Below the pieces are notes generated by a model, which was given only the letters and a program-made list of their open reading frames with translations, was not told the DNA's origin and did not search any database. Below, in pieces: positions 7,529 to 44,351 of a stretch of 46,481 bases of DNA (the first letter of the stretch is position 1; every line of letters starts with the position of its first letter). Position numbers and translations under genes: made by a program. The stretch is from IMG/VR virus record IMGVR_UViG_648861009_000008; one strand, given 5' to 3'. Origin of the DNA: a virus. Lineage: Duplodnaviria; Heunggongvirae; Uroviricota; Caudoviricetes.

Positions 7529-9891
<2,363 letters not shown>

Positions 9892-10730
9892 NNNNNNNNN
9901 NNNNNNNNNNNNNNNNNNNNNNNNNNNNNNNNNNNNNNNNNNNNNNNNNNNNNNNNNNNNNNNNNNNNNNNNNNNNNNNNNNNNNNNNNNNNNNNNNNNN
10001 NNNNNNNNNNNNNNNNNNNNNNNNNNNNNNNNNNNNNNNNNNNNNNNNNNNNNNNNNNNNNNNNNNNNNNNNNNNNNNNNNNNNNNNNNNNNNNNNNNNN
10101 NNNNNNNNNNNNNNNNNNNNNNNNNNNNNNNNNNNNNNNNNNNNNNNNNNNNNNNNNNNNNNNNNNNNNNNNNNNNNNNNNNNNNNNNNNNNNNNNNNNN
10201 NNNNNNNNNNNNNNNNNNNNNNNNNNNNNNNNNNNNNNNNNNNNNNNNNNNNNNNNNNNNNNNNNNNNNNNNNNNNNNNNNNNNNNNNNNNNNNNNNNNN
10301 NNNNNNNNNNNNNNNNNNNNNNNNNNNNNNNNNNNNNNNNNNNNNNNNNNNNNNNNNNNNNNNNNNNNNNNNNNNNNNNNNNNNNNNNNNNNNNNNNNNN
10401 NNNNNNNNNNNNNNNNNNNNNNNNNNNNNNNNNNNNNNNNNNNNNNNNNNNNNNNNNNNNNNNNNNNNNNNNNNNNNNNNNNNNNNNNNNNNNNNNNNNN
10501 NNNNNNNNNNNNNNNNNNNNNNNNNNNNNNNNNNNNNNNNNNNNNNNNNNNNNNNNNNNNNNNNNNNNNNNNNNNNNNNNNNNNNNNNNNNNNNNNNNNN
10601 NNNNNNNNNNNNNNNNNNNNNNNNNNNNNNNNNNNNNNNNNNNNNNNNNNNNNNNNNNNNNNNNNNNNNNNNNNNNNNNNNNNNNNNNNNNNNNNNNNNN
10701 NNNNNNNNNNNNNNNNNNNNNNNNNNNNNN
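9892..10730. other. assembly gap (839 N) hiding the 5' end of J, genes K and I, and the 3' end of L
   Basis: Run of N; flanking ORFs are J (C-terminal part) and L (N-terminal part). Confidence 0.95.
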
Positions 10731-11372
10731 AAACTTACAGCCGCTCAGGCATTTGCTGCATTTATCCTTCGTGATATCGGACGTCGGCTGATCATATTCA
10801 TCCGCGACCGCCGGACCGTGATAACCGCACTCGTCACCGCGATAGGTCCAGGTGCAGGTGTTGGCCAGCATGATGCGCCCCGGAAAAACGGCACCGTCCG
10901 TTTCCGTCGGCGTGGACAGTACAAAAGAGGCACTCACCGCGCTCAGTTCGCTGCACTGCTCGATGCGCCAGCGGCTGATCACCTCCTGCTCAGGATCGGC
11001 GTCACTGTTTCCGTTGACGAAGTTCACCGCATCCAGAAAACGGGCGTAAACCTTACGCCTGACCACCGTTCCGCCGACCAGACTCTGCAGATCTTCCGCC
11101 ATCCCGGTGACCATGCCGTGCAGGTTAGAAACCGTCAGTGTCGGACGGGCAGCACTGCCCTTGCCATTCAGTTCAAATCCCGTCCCCTGAATGGGGTATG
11201 CCTGATACTGCCGCCCCTGCCAGGTAACCGGCTCACCTTTTTCGTTCTGCTCATTACAGAAAAAATAACGTTCACCACCGACCTCTGTCAGATCGATTTC
11301 CCAGAGCACCACCTGGGCTGACTGAGTGAGGCGTGTCGTCTCATGATGTGTTTCCTGTGGAATATCCTGCAT
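10731..11372 (-). CDS. L: minor tail protein L (3' end in gap)
   Basis: MQDIPQETHHETTRLTQSAQVVLWEIDLTEVGGERYFFCNEQNEKGEPVTWQGRQYQ... closely matches lambda L as recalled; runs into the N-run. Confidence 0.85.
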
Positions 11373-12624: not shown

Positions 12625-14805
12625 TCAGCTGAATTGTTTTTTCTTCAGCTCGTTGAGTGCCGTCTGTTTCTGAAGCTCCTGCTGTTTTACATCCAGCAGC
12701 GTCAGTGCCTGAATCAGTTCATCTTTACGGGCCAGCACACTCTTTTCATCTGCCGTCAGTTTTTTCCCGTCCAGGTCGCTGATGCGCTGCTGCAGAGCCA
12801 GAAGCTGTTTATGCGCTTCTGTCATCCTTTCCGTGGCAATGCCTGCTGACTGTCTGGCAGCAGCAATCTGTCCTTCCACCTGTGCCTGTTGCTGACTGTA
12901 CTGCAGCAATAACCGGGTGGCCTCATCATTACGGGGTTCGCGTGTTTTTTTCTTACCGGATGCCAGGGCTTTCTCGTAACGTTCATTTTCACGTTGTATC
13001 GCTGCATCCCTGACAGCCTGATCGGCGTACTGCATGGAATTAATACGCGCAATTTCACGCTGATGTCGTGCTGCTTCCGTTTCATTCATCCGGTTCAGTG
13101 CAGCATTTTCAGCATTACGTCGTTTCTGTTGCTCCTGATAATTCCGCTCTGCCTGCTCTTTTGCATCCTGCAAATCCTTCTGGCGTTTTTTCTCCTGAAG
13201 ATCGTTAAGACGCTGCTGATCGTATTCAACCTGAGAAGATGATGCCGTCCAGGGGAGTCTTTTCGCCCGCGACACTTTCTCCTGTAAAGCGGCAATCTGT
13301 TCATCCAGCGAGTCTTCACGACCAATATTCATGGCCGCATCCCAGAAACGACTCCACAAATCAGACAGATACTTCAGCGTACTGCCAAGCGCATTGAGGT
13401 TATTATCAATATCCGCAGTACGCCGACCGGTTTCCTCTGCCAGTGCAGACATGGCTATCCGTGCAGCATCACTGGACCGTCCCTGATCCCCAAGGACACG
13501 TATCTGCTCAAGCTGAGTGGCAGTAAGAAAATGCAGCTCATTGTCCAGAGCCTTCGCGGCATTTACAGGATCATCCTTCAGCCGCTTAAACTGATTTATG
13601 GTATCGCTGACCGACTGGCCAACCGATCGCTCCATCTGTGCGGCAGCTCTCGCCACCATACCGATATCGTTTCCACGAAATGCACCACTCCCCACCACCT
13701 GAGCCAGCGCACCGGCTGCAGCATGTTGCGTGATACCATTCCCGGAAATAGCACGACTGAGCGTCCACAGCTGCCCGGCAGTGACTCCGGCATAATGCCC
13801 CGTCAGCGACAACTGGCGGTTAAATTCTTCCCCCTCCTTCTGACCGTCATACCAGGCTTTACCCAGACCATAGACGGACGCGGCAATACCGCCAATAACC
13901 CCGCCAAGCATCATGCCTTTCGGTGACATCAGAGTGTCTATCCATCCGGCACGGTTAGCCAGCGTTATCCCGGATCCCCTCAGCGCCCCTAAATTGCCGC
14001 GGGCCAGTTCACCTATCAGAACGCCAATCTCCTGGCGGGCCGCTGCACTTTTCAGACCCAGCGAATGCGTGGCTTTTCCTGCCTGCTCCATTTTGCGGAT
14101 ATACACTTCTGCAGCACTGCTTACCCCCAGCTGGGCAGCCTTAGCACGAAGCAACTCAGAAGAAGAAAGATTCTGGCGGGTTGCCTGCTCTTTAAGCTGA
14201 CGGATAAACGCCACTTTCTGTCGGGTAGCCTCTTCCTCAGCCTGCGTAAGAACACGGGTTTTCGCCGTAACCTCAGAAATCAGCGCCAGATAATCCTGCT
14301 GACCAATCCCGCCACTGTTTCTGGCCTGTCGGATCTGCTGCTGAATACGCTGTAATTCCTGCAGCCCCGCACTGGCCTGTTTCACACTGTCAATCTGACG
14401 ATAAAACGCGGCAGCCGCTTTATCCTGAGCCTCCGCCAGAGCCATGGCCTGCGCCTGTTCCTCGCGCATTTTCTGGCTCAGTGCCTCCATACGCTGGCGG
14501 GTTTGCTCCACCTCGCGGGCCATGCGTTCATGAGCCTGTGCGCTCTTCTCCACCGTCTGCGCATGGACGGATGCGGCTGTTGCAGCCGAAGAAGCCGCCT
14601 GCATTGTCTGCCGGGCGGCCTGAGTCTGACGCTCCATAAAACGCTGCATACGGGCAGAAGACCGTTCTGCATCGCTGGCTGCACCATTCAGAAGGTTTTT
14701 GATACGGGGAATTTCATTTTTAAACTCTGCCGCATCAATCCCCAAATCAATGACCAGGTTGGCTATCTGGTCCATAACGCACACCTCCGGAAATACCTTC
14801 CCCAA
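12625..14805 (-). CDS. H: tail tape-measure protein, N-terminal segment (726 aa, coiled-coil rich)
   Basis: Long helical Q/A/E/R-rich ORF between G/T and M, the lambda H position. Confidence 0.85.
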   Translation of the reverse strand: MGKVFPEVCVMDQIANLVIDLGIDAAEFKNEIPRIKNLLNGAASDAERSSARMQRFMERQTQAARQTMQAASSAATAASVHAQTVEKSAQAHERMAREVEQTRQRMEALSQKMREEQAQAMALAEAQDKAAAAFYRQIDSVKQASAGLQELQRIQQQIRQARNSGGIGQQDYLALISEVTAKTRVLTQAEEEATRQKVAFIRQLKEQATRQNLSSSELLRAKAAQLGVSSAAEVYIRKMEQAGKATHSLGLKSAAARQEIGVLIGELARGNLGALRGSGITLANRAGWIDTLMSPKGMMLGGVIGGIAASVYGLGKAWYDGQKEGEEFNRQLSLTGHYAGVTAGQLWTLSRAISGNGITQHAAAGALAQVVGSGAFRGNDIGMVARAAAQMERSVGQSVSDTINQFKRLKDDPVNAAKALDNELHFLTATQLEQIRVLGDQGRSSDAARIAMSALAEETGRRTADIDNNLNALGSTLKYLSDLWSRFWDAAMNIGREDSLDEQIAALQEKVSRAKRLPWTASSSQVEYDQQRLNDLQEKKRQKDLQDAKEQAERNYQEQQKRRNAENAALNRMNETEAARHQREIARINSMQYADQAVRDAAIQRENERYEKALASGKKKTREPRNDEATRLLLQYSQQQAQVEGQIAAARQSAGIATERMTEAHKQLLALQQRISDLDGKKLTADEKSVLARKDELIQALTLLDVKQQELQKQTALNELKKKQFS

Positions 14806-15513
14806 GATGCATCAGTTCTTCGTCCGTTCGCTCCGGTATCCCGTTCTCTTCCGGTAAAAGGCTGAAATCAGCCACCGCAGCATCACTGCTACCGGACACC
14901 ATTCTCACGATCAATGCCTTCAGCGAGGCAAACTGCGCATCCATCCACACATCACTGAAGCTCTGCATCCGGAAATAATCGCCCCACTCACCAAGCTCAG
15001 TGGCCGACATTTCCGACAGCATCCGCCGCCAGTCTGCCCGCCGGAACTCCCGGGCAAGCCGCATGACAAACTGCATTTCCCGCGTCAGGACTTTTCCGGC
15101 GTCAGCACCTCATGCTCCAAATCCCCGGCATTCTCAATGACTCCCATACCGCTCAGCGACAGAACCATCTCCGCCCCCGCTCCCAGGGCATCATACGACC
15201 ATGTTGTAATAACGGATGCGCAAAGCGTCTCAACATCCTGAGACTGTTCCGCATTCCACAGTGAGCGGGAAACCAGCCAGGCATTGATATCCATCCCCAT
15301 CCGCAGAAAAGCAATCTGTCGTTCAGCCTCCGGCAGTTCTCCCTCTTCGGCATCAAACTTTGCCGTTCGCTGCTGAACAAACGCCAGATATTCAATTCTC
15401 TGCAGCCCGGACAGCTCACTGAGCACCACGGACTGCTTTTCATAATTAAACGTGCCCTGTTTCAGAAACATCATGTTCTCCACCTGCAAAAAAGCCCCGG
15501 ATAACCGGGGCAA
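14747..15513 (-). CDS. T: tail assembly chaperone G-T fusion via programmed -1 frameshift near 15091..15097
   Basis: -1 frame is open from the end of G into the T ORF; heptamer G_GAA_AAG sits where lambda has G_GGA_AAG. Confidence 0.6.
15085..15513 (-). CDS. G: tail assembly chaperone G
   Basis: 142 aa with LSELSGLQRIEYLA motif like lambda G (LSELSALQRIEHLA). Confidence 0.85.
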   Translation of the reverse strand: MPRLSGAFLQVENMMFLKQGTFNYEKQSVVLSELSGLQRIEYLAFVQQRTAKFDAEEGELPEAERQIAFLRMGMDINAWLVSRSLWNAEQSQDVETLCASVITTWSYDALGAGAEMVLSLSGMGVIENAGDLEHEVLTPEKS

Positions 15514-15531: not shown

Positions 15532-16281
15532 TTAACCTGCGGCGCTGACAGCCACCGCAGCCACTGCCACAAAATCGCCGTCAGAAGTCATGCCCACAAT
15601 GCTGACACTGCCCTGCTTCACGCCTTTCACCGTGGCCACAAGCCCGTTCAGGGTCACCGTGGCAGTCTGTGGATCTGTCGAATGCACACTGATCGCTTTG
15701 TCACTGGCTCCGTCAGGTTTTACTGTAAAGGTCAGCGTGGTGGTTGCTCCCACTTTTACACTGGCAGATGCCGGTGCCACCGTCAGCCCGGTAACGCTCA
15801 CTGTTTCAGTGCCTTCCTCTGCCAGATACGGACGCCCCACACCGCTGATTTTCACTGTGCGGGTCATCACGTCTTTTGAGGCAATGGTTTTACCCAGTGA
15901 GCTCAGCCAGCCACGGAAAACATCAACAGTGCCGTTGGGATATTTGATACGAAACGCGCAGACTTCACCGGAGTCGAACAACTGAACCAGTTTTTTCTGC
16001 CCGCTGTCACCCGGACGCCAGGCCAGCGTCGCCGAAGTATCACCGACGGATTTCTGCCCCTGGGTTGTCGTTTTCCAGTCTGCATCTTCATCATCGAGAT
16101 AAGTGTCATCTTCTGCATCAGCGGTCATTTCGCCAGGTTGCAGATCCTTCACCATCGCAAGACGCAGCCAGTCAGTGTCCGATAAAGGGTTCGCAAACGC
16201 ATCGCCCTTGCCGGTGTACATCCAGAACGTCGTTCCCGCACCTTTCGTTTTTGCCAGTGGATTTGGTGTGGTCATTGCCAC
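15532..16281 (-). CDS. V: major tail protein V with C-terminal Ig-like domain
   Basis: 249 aa; lambda V-like order and sequence; C-terminal beta-rich T/V/S region. Confidence 0.85.
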   Translation of the reverse strand: MAMTTPNPLAKTKGAGTTFWMYTGKGDAFANPLSDTDWLRLAMVKDLQPGEMTADAEDDTYLDDEDADWKTTTQGQKSVGDTSATLAWRPGDSGQKKLVQLFDSGEVCAFRIKYPNGTVDVFRGWLSSLGKTIASKDVMTRTVKISGVGRPYLAEEGTETVSVTGLTVAPASASVKVGATTTLTFTVKPDGASDKAISVHSTDPQTATVTLNGLVATVKGVKQGSVSIVGMTSDGDFVAVAAVAVSAAG

Positions 16282-17952: not shown

Positions 17953-19911
17953 TTACGCCGTACATTTCACCAGACCGCGGTGATCAACTGGCGCGACACC
18001 GGCGTCAATACGCACTTTCGTTGTCACGCCATCCACACTGAAGCCCTCCATCTGATCAATATATGGCGTATCCACACCGTTGAGATAAGCCACTTCAATC
18101 GTATCGGAGCCTTTTGACGCAGCCAGGTAGAAGGTGGTCTGGCTGTTATCATCAAGACGAGGCTCTGCAATAACGGTCGCAAAATCTTTCACCGGGTTAA
18201 TAATACCGGCGTTAATGTCAGCCCCCTTGACACTTGAGGAGCGAATGACCTGGTTAGCAACAGACTCCATCGCCGTCGGTACCAGTACGAACGCAGGACG
18301 AATATTCAGATGACGCTCCCCCTCTTTCTGAACGCGCATCAACTGGCGGGCTTTATCCAGCGATGCCACGTCCATTGCAGCGCTCTCCAGTACGTTTGCA
18401 TGTTTCGCTTTATCGAACAGACTTACATTATCTGTGGAGATTTTCGGGTTAGACGTCAGAATGGCATAAACCAGATCGGCAATAGTGGATTTCGCCGCAC
18501 GGCCCAGTTTCATCGGGACATCGGTCAGCATATTCAGATCATCATTGATAATGGCCTGACGGGTGATACTGAACAGCTCGCCATAGGTCGCCAGTGCAAT
18601 AGTGGCCTGTTTATCTCCGGTGGTGACGTATTTATATTCCGCCCCTTCACGCACCTGACGTAGAGCACTGAAGCCCCCCATACCCACACGATGGGCAATT
18701 TTAAAATCAGACAACTGACCTTTCCGCGTCCACTGTTCATAGGTTTCAGGGGCATCTTCCCAGCCCTGCAGAATGGCTTTGTTCGCAACATCCAGCAGAA
18801 TATTACCGAAGTCAGACGTACTGTGTGTGAACGCCGCACCGACCATCTGCATCGGGTTATAACCGGAAACCCCAATACCCCGTTCAGTTAGTGACATACG
18901 GGCATATTCACGCAGGGTCATCCCGTTGTAGACATTATCACGTTCGGTTTTTTCAAATCCGGCACGCGCCATCAGCGCCTGGCGAATCCCGTCCCCCACA
19001 AAATTACCGTTACCGGCATAAATATGAGCCGGGGTATTTTTATTGGATGGCGTGGACTCGCGCCCCATCTCGTTCAACAGCTTTTCACGGGCCTGCTCCA
19101 GCGAACATTCAGGATCGGCAAGACACTGGGCCTGCAGCGTCTGATAACGCCCGCCAAACATGGCAAACAGATCATTAATACCGTTTACACGCGCTTTTTG
19201 CTCTGCCAGTACCTGCGCACGGATACTGTTTTCATCCACCACGGGTGCTGCTGCCTGCACTGGCGTCCGGGAGGCTGCAGGTTCATCATCCTGTACGCGT
19301 GGAGCACTGTTGCGTGGCGGAGTAATCATGTTTCGAATGGATTCCGGCATCTTTTTAAATTCCTCTGTACGTTTTGACTGAATACATGCCATTGCCTTAA
19401 CGGCTGGTGTCACCTGATCAGCAAATCCCTGTGCCAGACATTCGGCACCGGACATCCAGGTCTCATCCGCCAGCATGGCAGCAATTTCATCGGTGGTTTT
19501 CCCGGTTTTCTGTGCATAAGCGGGTAACAGAACCGCCTCAACTTTATCGAGCAGGTCGGCATAGGTGCGCATGTCCTCCGCATCACCGCCCGTAAAGCCA
19601 AATGGTTTATGAATCATCATGAAGGAGTTTTCCGGCATAATGACCGGGTTTCCCACCATCGCAATGACCGACGCCATTGACGCCGCCACACCGTCGACAT
19701 AAACGGTAATGGACGCACCATGTGTTTTCAGTGCATTAAAAATGGCGATGCCTTCAAAGACATCGCCACCCGGTGAATTAATATGGAGATTAATGTGGGT
19801 GATATCGCCCAGTGCATTCAGATCACTGATAAACTGCTTCGCTGTAACACCCCAGAAACCAATCTCGTCATAAATATAAATATCCGCGTCACTCTGGTGA
19901 CCTGCCTGCAT
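17953..19911 (-). CDS. ClpP-family prohead protease fused to HK97-fold major capsid protein; the ORF track extends to 20172 but the likely start is the ATG at 19911
   Basis: N-terminal ClpP/S14-like motifs (INSPGGDVFEGIAIFNALK...ASMASVIAMVG), long C-terminal capsid-like region; probable start 14 nt downstream of the portal stop. Confidence 0.75.
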   Translation of the reverse strand: MQAGHQSDADIYIYDEIGFWGVTAKQFISDLNALGDITHINLHINSPGGDVFEGIAIFNALKTHGASITVYVDGVAASMASVIAMVGNPVIMPENSFMMIHKPFGFTGGDAEDMRTYADLLDKVEAVLLPAYAQKTGKTTDEIAAMLADETWMSGAECLAQGFADQVTPAVKAMACIQSKRTEEFKKMPESIRNMITPPRNSAPRVQDDEPAASRTPVQAAAPVVDENSIRAQVLAEQKARVNGINDLFAMFGGRYQTLQAQCLADPECSLEQAREKLLNEMGRESTPSNKNTPAHIYAGNGNFVGDGIRQALMARAGFEKTERDNVYNGMTLREYARMSLTERGIGVSGYNPMQMVGAAFTHSTSDFGNILLDVANKAILQGWEDAPETYEQWTRKGQLSDFKIAHRVGMGGFSALRQVREGAEYKYVTTGDKQATIALATYGELFSITRQAIINDDLNMLTDVPMKLGRAAKSTIADLVYAILTSNPKISTDNVSLFDKAKHANVLESAAMDVASLDKARQLMRVQKEGERHLNIRPAFVLVPTAMESVANQVIRSSSVKGADINAGIINPVKDFATVIAEPRLDDNSQTTFYLAASKGSDTIEVAYLNGVDTPYIDQMEGFSVDGVTTKVRIDAGVAPVDHRGLVKCTA

Positions 19912-19924
19912 CCTGAACCAGGAA

Positions 19925-21412
19925 TTATTCTTCGGACTGGTCGTCGGTGTGCTGCGGCTCCTGTCGTTTCGTTGCGGCACTGCTGCCTCCTTTATCACTG
20001 GCCGGATCGGTATCAAATACCAGATCCAGCTTGCGGTTTTCATCAATTTCGGCCTTGCGCCGACGTTTGACATCATCCGGATTACGACCACCTGCACGTA
20101 CCCAGTCTGATTCTGTCGCCGCTCCACCACGAATCTGAATTTTCCAGGCCTCAGCCTCCTTAACAGGGTCAATCCACGGCATCACCGGTCCGGAATACAC
20201 CGCGGTATACAGTGAAGAACGATCAAGATCGCGGGGTAGCCTGATAACACCGGATGCCACAGCCTGTTTCAGCCAGGCACGATACATCGGGCGGGTGACG
20301 GCACCAATAAACCAGTCCTGCAGGATCAGGTAGCCATCAGTGGATTCAACCAGCTCCTGACGCTGGGCGCTGTAAGTGCCGTTATAGTTGCGTGCCGTAC
20401 TGGAAAAACTCAGACGACTGCCCGCCGCCACGGCACGCAACTGACCATTACGAAAAGTTTCAAGGTTAGGATTGGGACGATCCGACTTCACCATTCCGAT
20501 TTCTTCGCCGGGTTTCAGATCGTCGTAAATAATGCCTGGCTGAATGGTAAGCTCGCGTTCATTCTCCTTGCTGCCATTACCATCCGGTTCATAGCTCTGC
20601 CCGTCGCCTTTCCGGATGTACATCCCCAGAGCAGCGGCGATCCTTGCTGCAGTCAGCTCAGAATCTTCATACTCTTTCAGGGCACTGAGGCGGATCAGCA
20701 CACCGGACAACAAAGACGTCCCGCGCATCTGGTGCAGACGGCGAACAAATTTAAGATGCAGCATTCGCTCTGCATCCACTTCTTTGGTTTCCATCTGCCG
20801 CCCGGATACGGGACGGCTTTTATACACCAGATATTTTTCGGGACGCCCCCAGTCATCAACAAACACGCCCTGATTCAGCCTGTTGCTCTCATCACTGGTC
20901 ATGGGAATAAAGTCCGGCTCGAGCGCCTCCAGCCAGAAATGAACACCGGCAGAAGGCGTCAGGCTGTTTATGCGCCCGGAAACCATCTGGGCAAACACCT
21001 CACCATCGCGCAGCCAGGTACGCAGCATCAGACGTTCCAGCATCGGACGGGTAAACTGCCCGGTGACTTCCGGACTGACAGACCATTCACTCCATCGGGT
21101 GCGTATCTCCGCTGCCAGATCACGGGCAATGGCCCCATTGCGTAATACCGGATGTGGCTCGACAATAATCCCGTTTTTCCCCACCACCCGTTCTTCCAGC
21201 TTGTCAAATACACCAATAACCAGATCGTGGTTGTTATCAAGGTAACGGGCCTGCTCACGTAACGACACGGCCCCGTACTGGCTTAACTGGTCGGCAGTTC
21301 GGTTTTCCCGCCGGGCTTTGTGTGTCCGTGTCGTTTTTACGGCCTCATAAGCCTGGATCACCGCACGGGAACGCAGCCTTGCCGCTTTCCATCCTGGTGA
21401 AAAAAACGCCAA
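19925..21412 (-). CDS. portal protein (lambda B-like)
   Basis: 495 aa between W and the protease/capsid gene; acidic C-terminus. Confidence 0.8.
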   Translation of the reverse strand: MAFFSPGWKAARLRSRAVIQAYEAVKTTRTHKARRENRTADQLSQYGAVSLREQARYLDNNHDLVIGVFDKLEERVVGKNGIIVEPHPVLRNGAIARDLAAEIRTRWSEWSVSPEVTGQFTRPMLERLMLRTWLRDGEVFAQMVSGRINSLTPSAGVHFWLEALEPDFIPMTSDESNRLNQGVFVDDWGRPEKYLVYKSRPVSGRQMETKEVDAERMLHLKFVRRLHQMRGTSLLSGVLIRLSALKEYEDSELTAARIAAALGMYIRKGDGQSYEPDGNGSKENERELTIQPGIIYDDLKPGEEIGMVKSDRPNPNLETFRNGQLRAVAAGSRLSFSSTARNYNGTYSAQRQELVESTDGYLILQDWFIGAVTRPMYRAWLKQAVASGVIRLPRDLDRSSLYTAVYSGPVMPWIDPVKEAEAWKIQIRGGAATESDWVRAGGRNPDDVKRRRKAEIDENRKLDLVFDTDPASDKGGSSAATKRQEPQHTDDQSEE

Positions 21413-33535: not shown

Positions 33536-34715
33536 NNNNNNNNNNNNNNNNNNNNNNNNNNNNNNNNNNNNNNNNNNNNNNNNNNNNNNNNNNNNNNNNN
33601 NNNNNNNNNNNNNNNNNNNNNNNNNNNNNNNNNNNNNNNNNNNNNNNNNNNNNNNNNNNNNNNNNNNNNNNNNNNNNNNNNNNNNNNNNNNNNNNNNNNN
33701 NNNNNNNNNNNNNNNNNNNNNNNNNNNNNNNNNNNNNNNNNNNNNNNNNNNNNNNNNNNNNNNNNNNNNNNNNNNNNNNNNNNNNNNNNNNNNNNNNNNN
33801 NNNNNNNNNNNNNNNNNNNNNNNNNNNNNNNNNNNNNNNNNNNNNNNNNNNNNNNNNNNNNNNNNNNNNNNNNNNNNNNNNNNNNNNNNNNNNNNNNNNN
33901 NNNNNNNNNNNNNNNNNNNNNNNNNNNNNNNNNNNNNNNNNNNNNNNNNNNNNNNNNNNNNNNNNNNNNNNNNNNNNNNNNNNNNNNNNNNNNNNNNNNN
34001 NNNNNNNNNNNNNNNNNNNNNNNNNNNNNNNNNNNNNNNNNNNNNNNNNNNNNNNNNNNNNNNNNNNNNNNNNNNNNNNNNNNNNNNNNNNNNNNNNNNN
34101 NNNNNNNNNNNNNNNNNNNNNNNNNNNNNNNNNNNNNNNNNNNNNNNNNNNNNNNNNNNNNNNNNNNNNNNNNNNNNNNNNNNNNNNNNNNNNNNNNNNN
34201 NNNNNNNNNNNNNNNNNNNNNNNNNNNNNNNNNNNNNNNNNNNNNNNNNNNNNNNNNNNNNNNNNNNNNNNNNNNNNNNNNNNNNNNNNNNNNNNNNNNN
34301 NNNNNNNNNNNNNNNNNNNNNNNNNNNNNNNNNNNNNNNNNNNNNNNNNNNNNNNNNNNNNNNNNNNNNNNNNNNNNNNNNNNNNNNNNNNNNNNNNNNN
34401 NNNNNNNNNNNNNNNNNNNNNNNNNNNNNNNNNNNNNNNNNNNNNNNNNNNNNNNNNNNNNNNNNNNNNNNNNNNNNNNNNNNNNNNNNNNNNNNNNNNN
34501 NNNNNNNNNNNNNNNNNNNNNNNNNNNNNNNNNNNNNNNNNNNNNNNNNNNNNNNNNNNNNNNNNNNNNNNNNNNNNNNNNNNNNNNNNNNNNNNNNNNN
34601 NNNNNNNNNNNNNNNNNNNNNNNNNNNNNNNNNNNNNNNNNNNNNNNNNNNNNNNNNNNNNNNNNNNNNNNNNNNNNNNNNNNNNNNNNNNNNNNNNNNN
34701 NNNNNNNNNNNNNNN
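33536..34715. other. assembly gap (1180 N) hiding the hok regulatory region and the left part of IS5
   Basis: Run of N between the hokD start and IS5 transposase C-terminal coding sequence. Confidence 0.95.
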
Positions 34716-44299: not shown

Positions 44300-44351
44300 N
44301 NNNNNNNNNNNNNNNNNNNNNNNNNNNNNNNNNNNNNNNNNNNNNNNNNNN
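44300..44351. other. assembly gap (52 N) between two overlapping copies of the same ~445-bp sequence
   Basis: 43851..44299 and 44352..44798 are near-identical apart from single-base indels. Confidence 0.9.

What the first reader, a model, noticed from the sequence alone, without database searches (positions are those of the whole stretch)
15085..15100. G/T programmed frameshift uses G_GAA_AAG rather than lambda's G_GGA_AAG
The -1 frame is open from the end of G into T, so a G-T fusion is expected. The only plausible slip site at the right position is G GAA AAG (plus strand CTTTTCC, 15091..15097). The A-site slip AAG to AAA is standard, but the P-site re-pairing is imperfect, so efficiency may differ from lambda.
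Basis: partly seen in the sequence, partly recalled or inferred. Interest (0 to 1): 0.45.

Follow-up and report, generated by a model that had tools for sequence, protein, structure and literature searches.

The report
Ordinary phage tail-chaperone frameshift site
This is the usual programmed -1 ribosomal frameshift that joins the G and T tail-assembly chaperone genes of a lambda-like E. coli prophage, and its G_GAA_AAG slip sequence is the commonest one in this gene family and already annotated in phages N15, phi80 and LLS.

Summary
On the minus strand, a gpG-family gene (15471..15085) is followed by a gpT-family reading frame in the -1 frame. That frame is open only from 15109, so the G/T overlap is 25 nt. 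The only site in it where the A-site tRNA can re-pair is G_GAA_AAG (15097..15091).

The interpretation, a G-T fusion made by -1 slippage at this site, is well supported by comparison with relatives. Of 31 non-redundant G/T lineages (80% aa clustering), 26 use G_GAA_AAG, 4 use lambda's G_GGA_AAG and 1 uses A_GAA_AAG. The heptamer is an island of near-invariance in a variable linker. Its first G is a synonymous third-codon base, yet it is 97% conserved against 30-53% at neighbouring third positions.

No conserved downstream RNA structure was found. An upstream SD-like GAGG is patchy and explained by a conserved Glu codon.

This is not new. GenBank records of N15, phi80 and LLS annotate GGAAAAG as the -1 frameshift site at the homologous position. 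Lambda is the minority variant.

The one point of some interest is that G_GAA_AAG served as the poorly slippery comparison sequence in a reconstituted in vitro translation study, yet it is the prevalent natural site. No experimental measurement exists for this phage group.

The parts
15532..16281 (-). Major tail tube protein gene (lambda V-like, with a C-terminal Ig-like domain)
   Evidence: Pfam Phage_TTP_12 6e-67 and Big_2 2e-11. Annotated as major tail protein in Ayreon, mEp460, Tritos and HannyBb.
15488..15511 (-). Terminator-like GC hairpin plus T-run between V and G
   Evidence: GCCCCGGTTATCCGGGGC followed by TTTTTT. A terminator is annotated at the homologous place in Ayreon, mEp460 and N15.
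15085..15471 (-). Tail assembly chaperone G gene. The start is probably the second ATG at 15471; a first ATG lies at 15474. The stop TGA is at 15087..15085.
   Evidence: Pfam Phage_TAC_2 7e-40. Homologues begin MFLK. PGAP calls a 387-nt CDS.
15085..15109 (-). The 25-nt stretch where both the G frame and the -1 (T) frame are open. The shift must happen here.
   Evidence: The -1 frame has a TGA at 15112..15110 and the 0 frame has its TGA at 15087..15085.
15091..15097 (-). Slip heptamer G_GAA_AAG. P-site Glu goes GAA to GGA; A-site Lys goes AAG to AAA.
   Evidence: It is the only re-pairable site in the overlap. It is conserved at the homologous position in 161/161 loci as N_GRA_AAG. Column conservation is 0.97/1/0.87/1/1/1/1 against 0.54 upstream. 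The same heptamer is annotated as the slippery sequence in N15, phi80 and LLS.
14747..15091 (-). T segment read in the -1 frame after the slip (VLTREMQFVMRLAREF...QPGH, 114 aa, stop at 14749..14747). The predicted GT fusion is about 241-242 aa.
   Evidence: Translation. Pfam Phage_tail_T 5e-15.
12625..14775 (-). Tape measure protein gene (lambda H-like). It overlaps the end of T.
   Evidence: Pfam TMP_2 4e-49 and TMP_4 7e-16.

Best explanation
This is the G/GT tail-assembly-chaperone recoding site of an mEp460/cdtI/Ayreon-type lambdoid E. coli prophage. Most ribosomes translate G (about 128 aa) to its TGA. A small fraction slip back one base with Glu-tRNA on GAA in the P site and Lys-tRNA on AAG in the A site. 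tRNA-Lys re-pairs perfectly with AAA. tRNA-Glu re-pairs with GGA through a central G.U. Translation then continues with GTC (Val) in the T frame, giving a fusion of about 242 aa with the junction ...TPEK-VLTRE... By analogy with lambda, the G part binds the tape measure protein and the T part recruits the tail tube protein, and a low GT:G ratio is needed. What is shown here is the gene identities, the frame geometry, the uniqueness of the site and its nucleotide-level conservation. The slip itself, its efficiency and the two-tRNA detail are inferred.
For: The gene order V-G-T-H and the Pfam assignments fit. The overlap is only 25 nt and holds a single A_AAG site. All 161 related loci (81 distinct G proteins) carry N_GRA_AAG in frame inside their own overlap. 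Across the family the permissible window shrinks to 7 nt before AAG (Edwardsiella L031) and to a stop directly after AAG (Proteus L019). In 31 non-redundant lineages the Lys codon is always AAG, although AAG is only 34% of Lys codons elsewhere in these genes. Glu, when present, is always GAA (55% elsewhere). The preceding codon varies between CCG, GCG and CTG (ACG also occurs at finer resolution, L070) but keeps G at its third base in 30/31 (41% expected). That third position is 97% conserved against 30-53% for other upstream third positions. The ATG at 15076, which databases use to start T, is present in only 2 of 30 lineages. The same heptamer at the homologous place is annotated as the -1 slippery sequence in N15, and with joined GT CDSs in phi80 and LLS.
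Against: There is no experimental evidence for a GT product in this phage group. All 8 records whose annotation was inspected and RefSeq PGAP annotate G and T as separate genes. [quoted passage not shown] No stimulatory RNA structure was detected. One lineage (Morganella L026) has A_GAA_AAG, so the first G is not absolutely required.
Confidence: 0.85

Rival explanations
1. The product and site are the same, but the slip involves one tRNA only. In this reading it is an NNA_AAG hexanucleotide or A_AAG tetranucleotide site, as in IS1222 (G_CGA_AAG) or Bacillus cdd (A_CGA_AAG). Only tRNA-Lys re-pairs (AAG to AAA) and the P-site tRNA-Glu does not meaningfully re-pair.
For: The Atkins 2016 review describes productive -1 shifting at NNA_AAG sites and the dominance of tRNA-Lys shiftiness (PMC5009743). 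A_AAG is by far the best tetramer in E. coli (PMC4066793). Peng 2019 treats G GAA AAG as a one-tRNA site. Morganella L026 has A_GAA_AAG.
Against: The synonymous base at heptamer position 1 is G in 30 of 31 non-redundant lineages, across CCG, GCG and CTG contexts. It is 97% conserved against 30-53% at neighbouring third positions. The P-site codon is restricted to GAA or GGA even though a Glu/Gly exchange is tolerated. Both facts point to selection on P-site re-pairing to GGA or GGG.
Confidence: 0.25
2. T is an independent gene translated from its own ATG at 15076, as annotated in GenBank and RefSeq, and no frameshift occurs.
For: ORF 15076..14747 starts with ATG and is annotated as 'tail assembly protein T' in mEp460, Tritos, HannyBb and E. 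coli RefSeq.
Against: That ATG column is ATG in only 2 of 30 lineages; Gifsy-2, phi80, N15 and lambda have no start codon there. The T frame is open back to the heptamer in every lineage. The heptamer would have no reason to be conserved at synonymous positions. In lambda, T is known only as part of GT (Levin 1993 and Xu 2013/2014 as summarised in PMC5009743).
Confidence: 0.05
3. The G-T fusion arises from RNA polymerase slippage on the A run rather than from ribosomal slippage.
For: The site contains a homopolymeric run (AAAA).
Against: Known transcriptional slippage needs runs of about 8 or more bases (PMC3711429), and here the run is 4. Conservation extends to the flanking G, G and the terminal G of AAG, which matters for tRNA re-pairing and not for polymerase slippage.
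Confidence: 0.02

Closest known systems
Phage lambda G / GT (-1 PRF at G_GGA_AAG; Levin, Hendrix & Casjens 1993; Xu, Hendrix & Duda 2004, 2013, 2014)
   Same: The same Pfam families for G and T, the same V-G-T-H gene order, the same -1 frame relation, the same A-site codon AAG and the same homologous position of the heptamer. No conserved stimulatory RNA structure was found around the site in the alignment that includes lambda.
   Different: The P-site codon is GAA (Glu) instead of GGA (Gly). G is about 33% identical. G ends 1 codon after the slip site instead of 5. The overlap is 25 nt against 64 nt.
Phage N15 genes 14/15, phi80 G/G-T and phage LLS genes 11/12
   Same: The identical heptamer GGAAAAG sits at the homologous position and is explicitly annotated as the -1 frameshift slippery sequence. 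phi80 (FN582354) and LLS also carry joined GT CDSs.
   Different: G is only about 33% identical. The preceding codon is GCG rather than CCG. Five more G codons follow the slip site.
Salmonella prophage Gifsy-2 STM1039/STM1041.1n
   Same: This is the closest G outside the clade (55% identity). The 3' end ACG CCG GAA AAG TCC TGA is identical, and T is annotated as 'part of G+G' frameshift hybrid protein'.
   Different: The linker sequence differs, and there is no ATG at the position of the window's T start.
NNA_AAG hexanucleotide -1 sites (IS1222 G_CGA_AAG; B. subtilis cdd A_CGA_AAG; Licznar et al. 2003)
   Same: A non-canonical P-site codon ending in A is followed by AAG, and the shift is driven by E. 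coli-type tRNA-Lys (PMC5009743).
   Different: Here position 1 (G) is conserved and allows near-cognate P-site re-pairing through G.U, so the site behaves more like a degenerate X_XXA_AAG heptamer. No stimulator was found.
E. coli dnaX (A_AAA_AAG with an upstream SD and a downstream hairpin)
   Same: The A-site AAG-to-AAA slip is the same. The window has a GAGG 10 nt upstream of the heptamer, which is the dnaX spacing.
   Different: There is no downstream hairpin. The SD-like element is not conserved across the family and derives from a conserved Glu codon. The expected efficiency is a few percent or less, not 50%.

Membership tests
Lambda-type G/GT tail assembly chaperone pair expressed by -1 PRF | Two consecutive ORFs lie between the major tail protein gene and the tape measure gene | tested here: met
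   V 16281..15532, G 15471..15085, T frame 15109..14747 and H 14775..12625, all on the minus strand.
Lambda-type G/GT tail assembly chaperone pair expressed by -1 PRF | The upstream ORF is a gpG homologue and the downstream ORF is a gpT homologue | tested here: met
   Pfam PF06894 at 7.4e-40 and PF06223 at 5.1e-15, both above the curated cut-offs.
Lambda-type G/GT tail assembly chaperone pair expressed by -1 PRF | The downstream ORF is in the -1 frame, overlaps the 3' end of G and has no conserved start of its own | tested here: met
   The frame offset was verified. The ATG at 15076 is present in only 2 of 30 lineages.
Lambda-type G/GT tail assembly chaperone pair expressed by -1 PRF | A slippery sequence lies inside the overlap and is conserved among homologues | tested here: met
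   N_GRA_AAG is present in 161/161 loci. The heptamer columns are 0.87-1.0 conserved against 0.54 for the upstream linker.
Lambda-type G/GT tail assembly chaperone pair expressed by -1 PRF | A GT fusion protein is made at a low ratio to G and is required for tail assembly | not testable with these tools
   This needs a reporter assay, mass spectrometry or genetics. No published data for the mEp460/cdtI group were found in the held literature.
Canonical X_XXY_YYZ heptamer | Positions 1-3 are identical and positions 4-6 are identical | tested here: not met
   G-G-A / A-A-A / G: position 3 is A, not G. The P-site re-pairing needs a central G.U (PMC6924986). It fits PRFect's descriptive 'twofour' class by its name; the definition in their Fig. 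S1 was not read (PMC10885494).
dnaX-like stimulated -1 PRF | A stable RNA hairpin or pseudoknot lies 5-9 nt downstream of the heptamer | tested here: not met
   Folding z-scores are -0.39 and -0.57 against shuffles. The RNAalifold consensus of 30 lineages has no pairs near the site and an energy of -1.3 kcal/mol.
dnaX-like stimulated -1 PRF | A Shine-Dalgarno-like element lies about 10 nt upstream | tested here: inconclusive
   GAGG lies exactly 10 nt upstream in the window, Gifsy-2 and 5 other of the 31 representative lineages, and weaker GGAG-type matches at nearby spacings bring the total with anti-SD pairing of -5 kcal/mol or better to 14 of 31. The KS test against in-gene background gives p=0.005. 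It is absent in phi80, N15 and lambda, and it coincides with a conserved Glu codon followed by a G-initial codon.

The most novel reading that the evidence does not exclude
G_GAA_AAG may be the predominant and possibly ancestral slip site of the enterobacterial gpG/gpT family, with lambda's G_GGA_AAG arising at least three separate times. Its conserved first G implies that P-site tRNA-Glu re-pairing through a second-position G.U is functionally selected in vivo. This would hold even though the sequence behaves as nearly non-slippery in a reconstituted system. If so, these phages either work with a markedly lower GT:G ratio than lambda or rely on an unrecognised stimulator, such as the patchy SD-like GAGG 10 nt upstream.
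Probability: 0.3. Interest if true: 0.35.

Novelty: already known. Interest (0 to 1): 0.15.

Why it matters
The practical value is mainly for annotation. This G/T pair is present in 1849 of 5426 complete E. coli genomes. The one RefSeq locus inspected, and all 8 phage records of this clade whose annotation was inspected, list it as two separate genes without the GT fusion. Mechanistically it is a modest natural data set. The 31 independent lineages show which positions of a degenerate heptamer are under selection. They also show that a sequence used as a poorly slippery control in vitro is the preferred natural site where only a low frameshift level is wanted. It opens no new question about phage tail assembly.

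Tried and rejected
1. Downstream stimulatory structure. Single-sequence folds and the alifold consensus of 30 lineages gave nothing, so I rejected it.

2. Upstream SD-like stimulator. There is mild enrichment, but it is patchy and confounded by a conserved Glu codon. It shows no clear association with GAA versus GGA sites (12/26 against 1/4). I left it as inconclusive.

3. Annotated GT fusions in the protein database. The only G+T fusion proteins found (P0001-P0003, P0018) are singletons in which the linker is deleted in frame. They are not slippage annotations and say nothing about the slip site.

4. Other slip sites in the 25-nt overlap. None has a re-pairable A-site codon.

5. A nearby 0-frame stop as a stimulator. 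The distance from the slip site to the stop is 0, 1 or 5 codons in different lineages, so it is not conserved.

6. Primary literature. Licznar et al. 2003 (efficiencies of NNA_AAG motifs) is not held in the library. The library searches also did not return Xu et al. 2004 (list of slip sites in 28 phages) as a held paper. I therefore could not cite an in vivo efficiency for GAA_AAG or confirm whether Xu et al. list this heptamer.

Full report
**What is in the sequence**

On the minus strand the window carries a lambda-like tail module:
- A V-like major tail tube gene at 16281..15532 (Pfam Phage_TTP_12 6e-67, Big_2).
- A terminator-like hairpin at 15511..15488.
- A gpG-family gene at 15471..15085 (Phage_TAC_2, 7e-40).
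- A gpT-family frame (Phage_tail_T, 5e-15).
- A tape measure gene at 14775..12625 (TMP_2, TMP_4).

G ends ...GAG GTG CTG ACG CCG GAA AAG TCC TGA. The T frame is the -1 frame. It carries a TGA at 15112..15110 and is open from 15109 to 14747. The two frames are therefore both open for only 25 nt. Among the in-frame heptamers there, only G_GAA_AAG (15097..15091) lets the A-site tRNA re-pair (AAG to AAA).

The bare string GGAAAAG occurs 12 times in the window against about 7 expected. The string alone means little. The weight comes from frame, position and conservation.

**Where the sequence comes from**

The G/T region is 97.5-99.6% identical to phages Ayreon, mEp460, cdtI, Tritos, HannyBb and others. 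It is present at 95% identity or more in 1849 of 5426 complete E. coli genomes. None of the 8 phage records of this clade whose annotation was inspected, nor the RefSeq/PGAP locus inspected, carries a joined GT CDS. They list G and T separately, with T starting at the ATG at 15076.

**Comparative test of the slip site**

I collected the following loci:
- 76 from one genome per bacterial species.
- 80 from IMG/VR.
- Reference phages lambda, 434, Gifsy-2, phi80, mEp043 and N15.

Of these, 161 loci have a complete G gene, giving 81 distinct G proteins. Every one has an in-frame N_GRA_AAG inside its own G/-1 overlap.

Clustering at 80% amino-acid identity leaves 31 lineages:
- 26 have G_GAA_AAG. 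These include the window clade, Gifsy-2, phi80/mEp043, N15, Proteus, Xenorhabdus, Enterobacter, Kosakonia, Rahnella, Kluyvera and Erwinia.
- 4 have G_GGA_AAG: lambda/434, E. albertii, a Serratia/Symbiopectobacterium group and Edwardsiella.
- 1 has A_GAA_AAG (Morganella).

On a neighbour-joining tree of the predicted GT proteins, the GGA state falls in at least three separate clades nested among GAA lineages. This tree is rough, and recombination was not excluded. On this evidence lambda is the exception and not the rule.

**Nucleotide-level selection**

A gap-free alignment of 30 lineages (A2) shows the heptamer as an island of invariance. Major-allele frequencies across it are 0.97, 1, 0.87, 1, 1, 1, 1. 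The mean for the 30 upstream linker columns is 0.54.
- The Lys codon is AAG in 31/31 lineages, although AAG is only 34% of Lys codons elsewhere in these genes.
- Glu is GAA in 27/27 lineages, against 55% elsewhere.
- The preceding codon changes amino acid (CCG, GCG, CTG; ACG also occurs at finer resolution, L070) but keeps a third-position G in 30/31. The expected frequency is 41%.
- That third position is 97% conserved, while the other ten upstream third positions are 30-53% conserved.

The probabilities computed assume independent lineages and are only indicative.

Across the family the permissible slip window shrinks further. It runs from 7 nt before the AAG codon (Edwardsiella L031) to a stop directly after AAG (Proteus L019). 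This pins the event to this heptamer.

The ATG used by the databases to start T is present in only 2 of 30 lineages. This argues against independent initiation of T.

**Mechanism**

The best-supported model is a tandem -1 slip. tRNA-Lys moves from AAG to AAA, which is a cognate pairing. tRNA-Glu moves from GAA to GGA, with a central G.U. Decoding then resumes at GTC. The product is a fusion of about 242 aa with the junction TPEK-VLTRE.

The conserved synonymous G at position 1, and the restriction of the P-site codon to GAA or GGA, favour a contribution from P-site re-pairing. The Morganella exception and the biochemical literature keep a one-tRNA (A_AAG / NNA_AAG type) slip alive as a variant (PMC5009743; PMC4066793).

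Peng et al. 2019 used exactly G GAA AAG as their less slippery sequence in a reconstituted E. coli system. It gave mainly 0-frame product with wild-type EF-G, unlike G GGA AAG (PMC6924986). A low level is what the system needs. The review cited gives a G:GT molar ratio of about 30:1 for lambda.

**Stimulators**

No significant downstream structure is predicted. Z-scores are -0.39 and -0.57, and the alifold consensus has no pairs near the site.

A GAGG lies exactly 10 nt upstream in the window, in Gifsy-2 and in 5 other representative lineages. This is the dnaX spacing. Counting weaker GGAG-type matches at nearby spacings, 14 of 31 lineages reach -5 kcal/mol or better. Anti-SD pairing there is mildly enriched over the in-gene background (KS p=0.005). 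However, it is absent in phi80, N15 and lambda. It also coincides with a conserved Glu codon followed by a G-initial codon. I treat it as inconclusive.

**Is it known?**

Yes.
- The N15 GenBank record marks 10027..10033 as 'slippery sequence for -1 translational frameshift', and that sequence is GGAAAAG.
- The phi80 record FN582354 has the same feature plus a joined gpG-T CDS.
- Phage LLS (PQ299149) annotates 'minus-one programmed translational frameshift site GGAAAAG' with a joined CDS.
- Gifsy-2, the nearest relative outside the clade with an identical 3' end, annotates T as part of a frameshift hybrid.
- The PRFect paper lists a 'twofour' motif class and discusses tRNA-Glu re-binding GGA through G.U (PMC10885494).

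I could not read Xu et al. 2004 or Licznar et al. 2003. I therefore cannot say whether this heptamer is tabulated there, or what its in vivo efficiency is.

**Verdict**

The feature is an ordinary, already-described variant of the G/GT frameshift, and in fact the commonest one.

Two things remain of value. The first is annotation, because GT is missing from the records inspected for a very widespread prophage. The second is a modest mechanistic point: a heptamer regarded as poorly slippery in vitro is the preferred natural site, and there is evidence of selection on its first base.

Noticed in passing
window 9892-10730, 33536-34715, 44300-44351: There are three runs of N (839, 1180 and 52 bases), presumably masked sequence. 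The first interrupts a tail gene on the minus strand (ORF 9828..11372).
   Followed up: no
window 15488-15511 (minus strand): A strong terminator-like hairpin (GCCCCGG-TTAT-CCGGGGC plus T6) lies between the major tail protein gene and G. It is annotated as a terminator in Ayreon, mEp460 and N15. It would lower transcription of G/T/H relative to V.
   Followed up: partly
E. coli RefSeq genomes and phage records: The GT fusion CDS appears systematically unannotated for this prophage type. The region is in 1849 of 5426 complete E. coli genomes. T is called as a separate gene from a non-conserved ATG in the 8 phage records whose annotation was inspected and in the one RefSeq locus inspected.
   Followed up: partly
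L026 (Morganella morganii H1r), slip site at about 1899-1905: This is the only lineage with A_GAA_AAG (preceding codon GCA), and AAG is followed directly by TAA. It is a natural test case for whether the first G is needed.
   Followed up: no
L057-L069 (genome-contig hits): Sequences with a G protein identical to lambda's, and an identical end-of-G region, sit on mostly short contigs. About half carry coverage tags near 1x in their names. The assemblies are labelled Pseudomonas, Kitasatospora, Neobacillus, Oceanobacillus, Shewanella, Leeuwenhoekiella, Pseudoxanthomonas, Psychrobacter, Paenibacillus, Chromatium and a Chromatiales MAG. This is almost certainly lambda DNA contamination or spike-in. 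L010, a 'Bacillota' MAG, carries the E. coli prophage at 98% identity.
   Followed up: no
proteins P0001-P0003, P0018: These singleton database proteins have G and T fused in frame by deletion of the linker and slip region. They could be assembly errors or real mutants that make only GT.
   Followed up: no
window 17953-20172 (minus strand): A 739-aa ORF upstream of the tail genes appears from its translation to combine a ClpP/S49-like protease motif (INSPGGDV...) with a capsid-like C-terminal part. This would be a protease-major capsid fusion. I did not test it against any library.
   Followed up: no
window, whole: GGAAAAG occurs 12 times against 7.0 +/- 2.3 expected, and only 1 of 100 shuffles reached 12. 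The other 11 copies were not checked for frame or overlap context.
   Followed up: no
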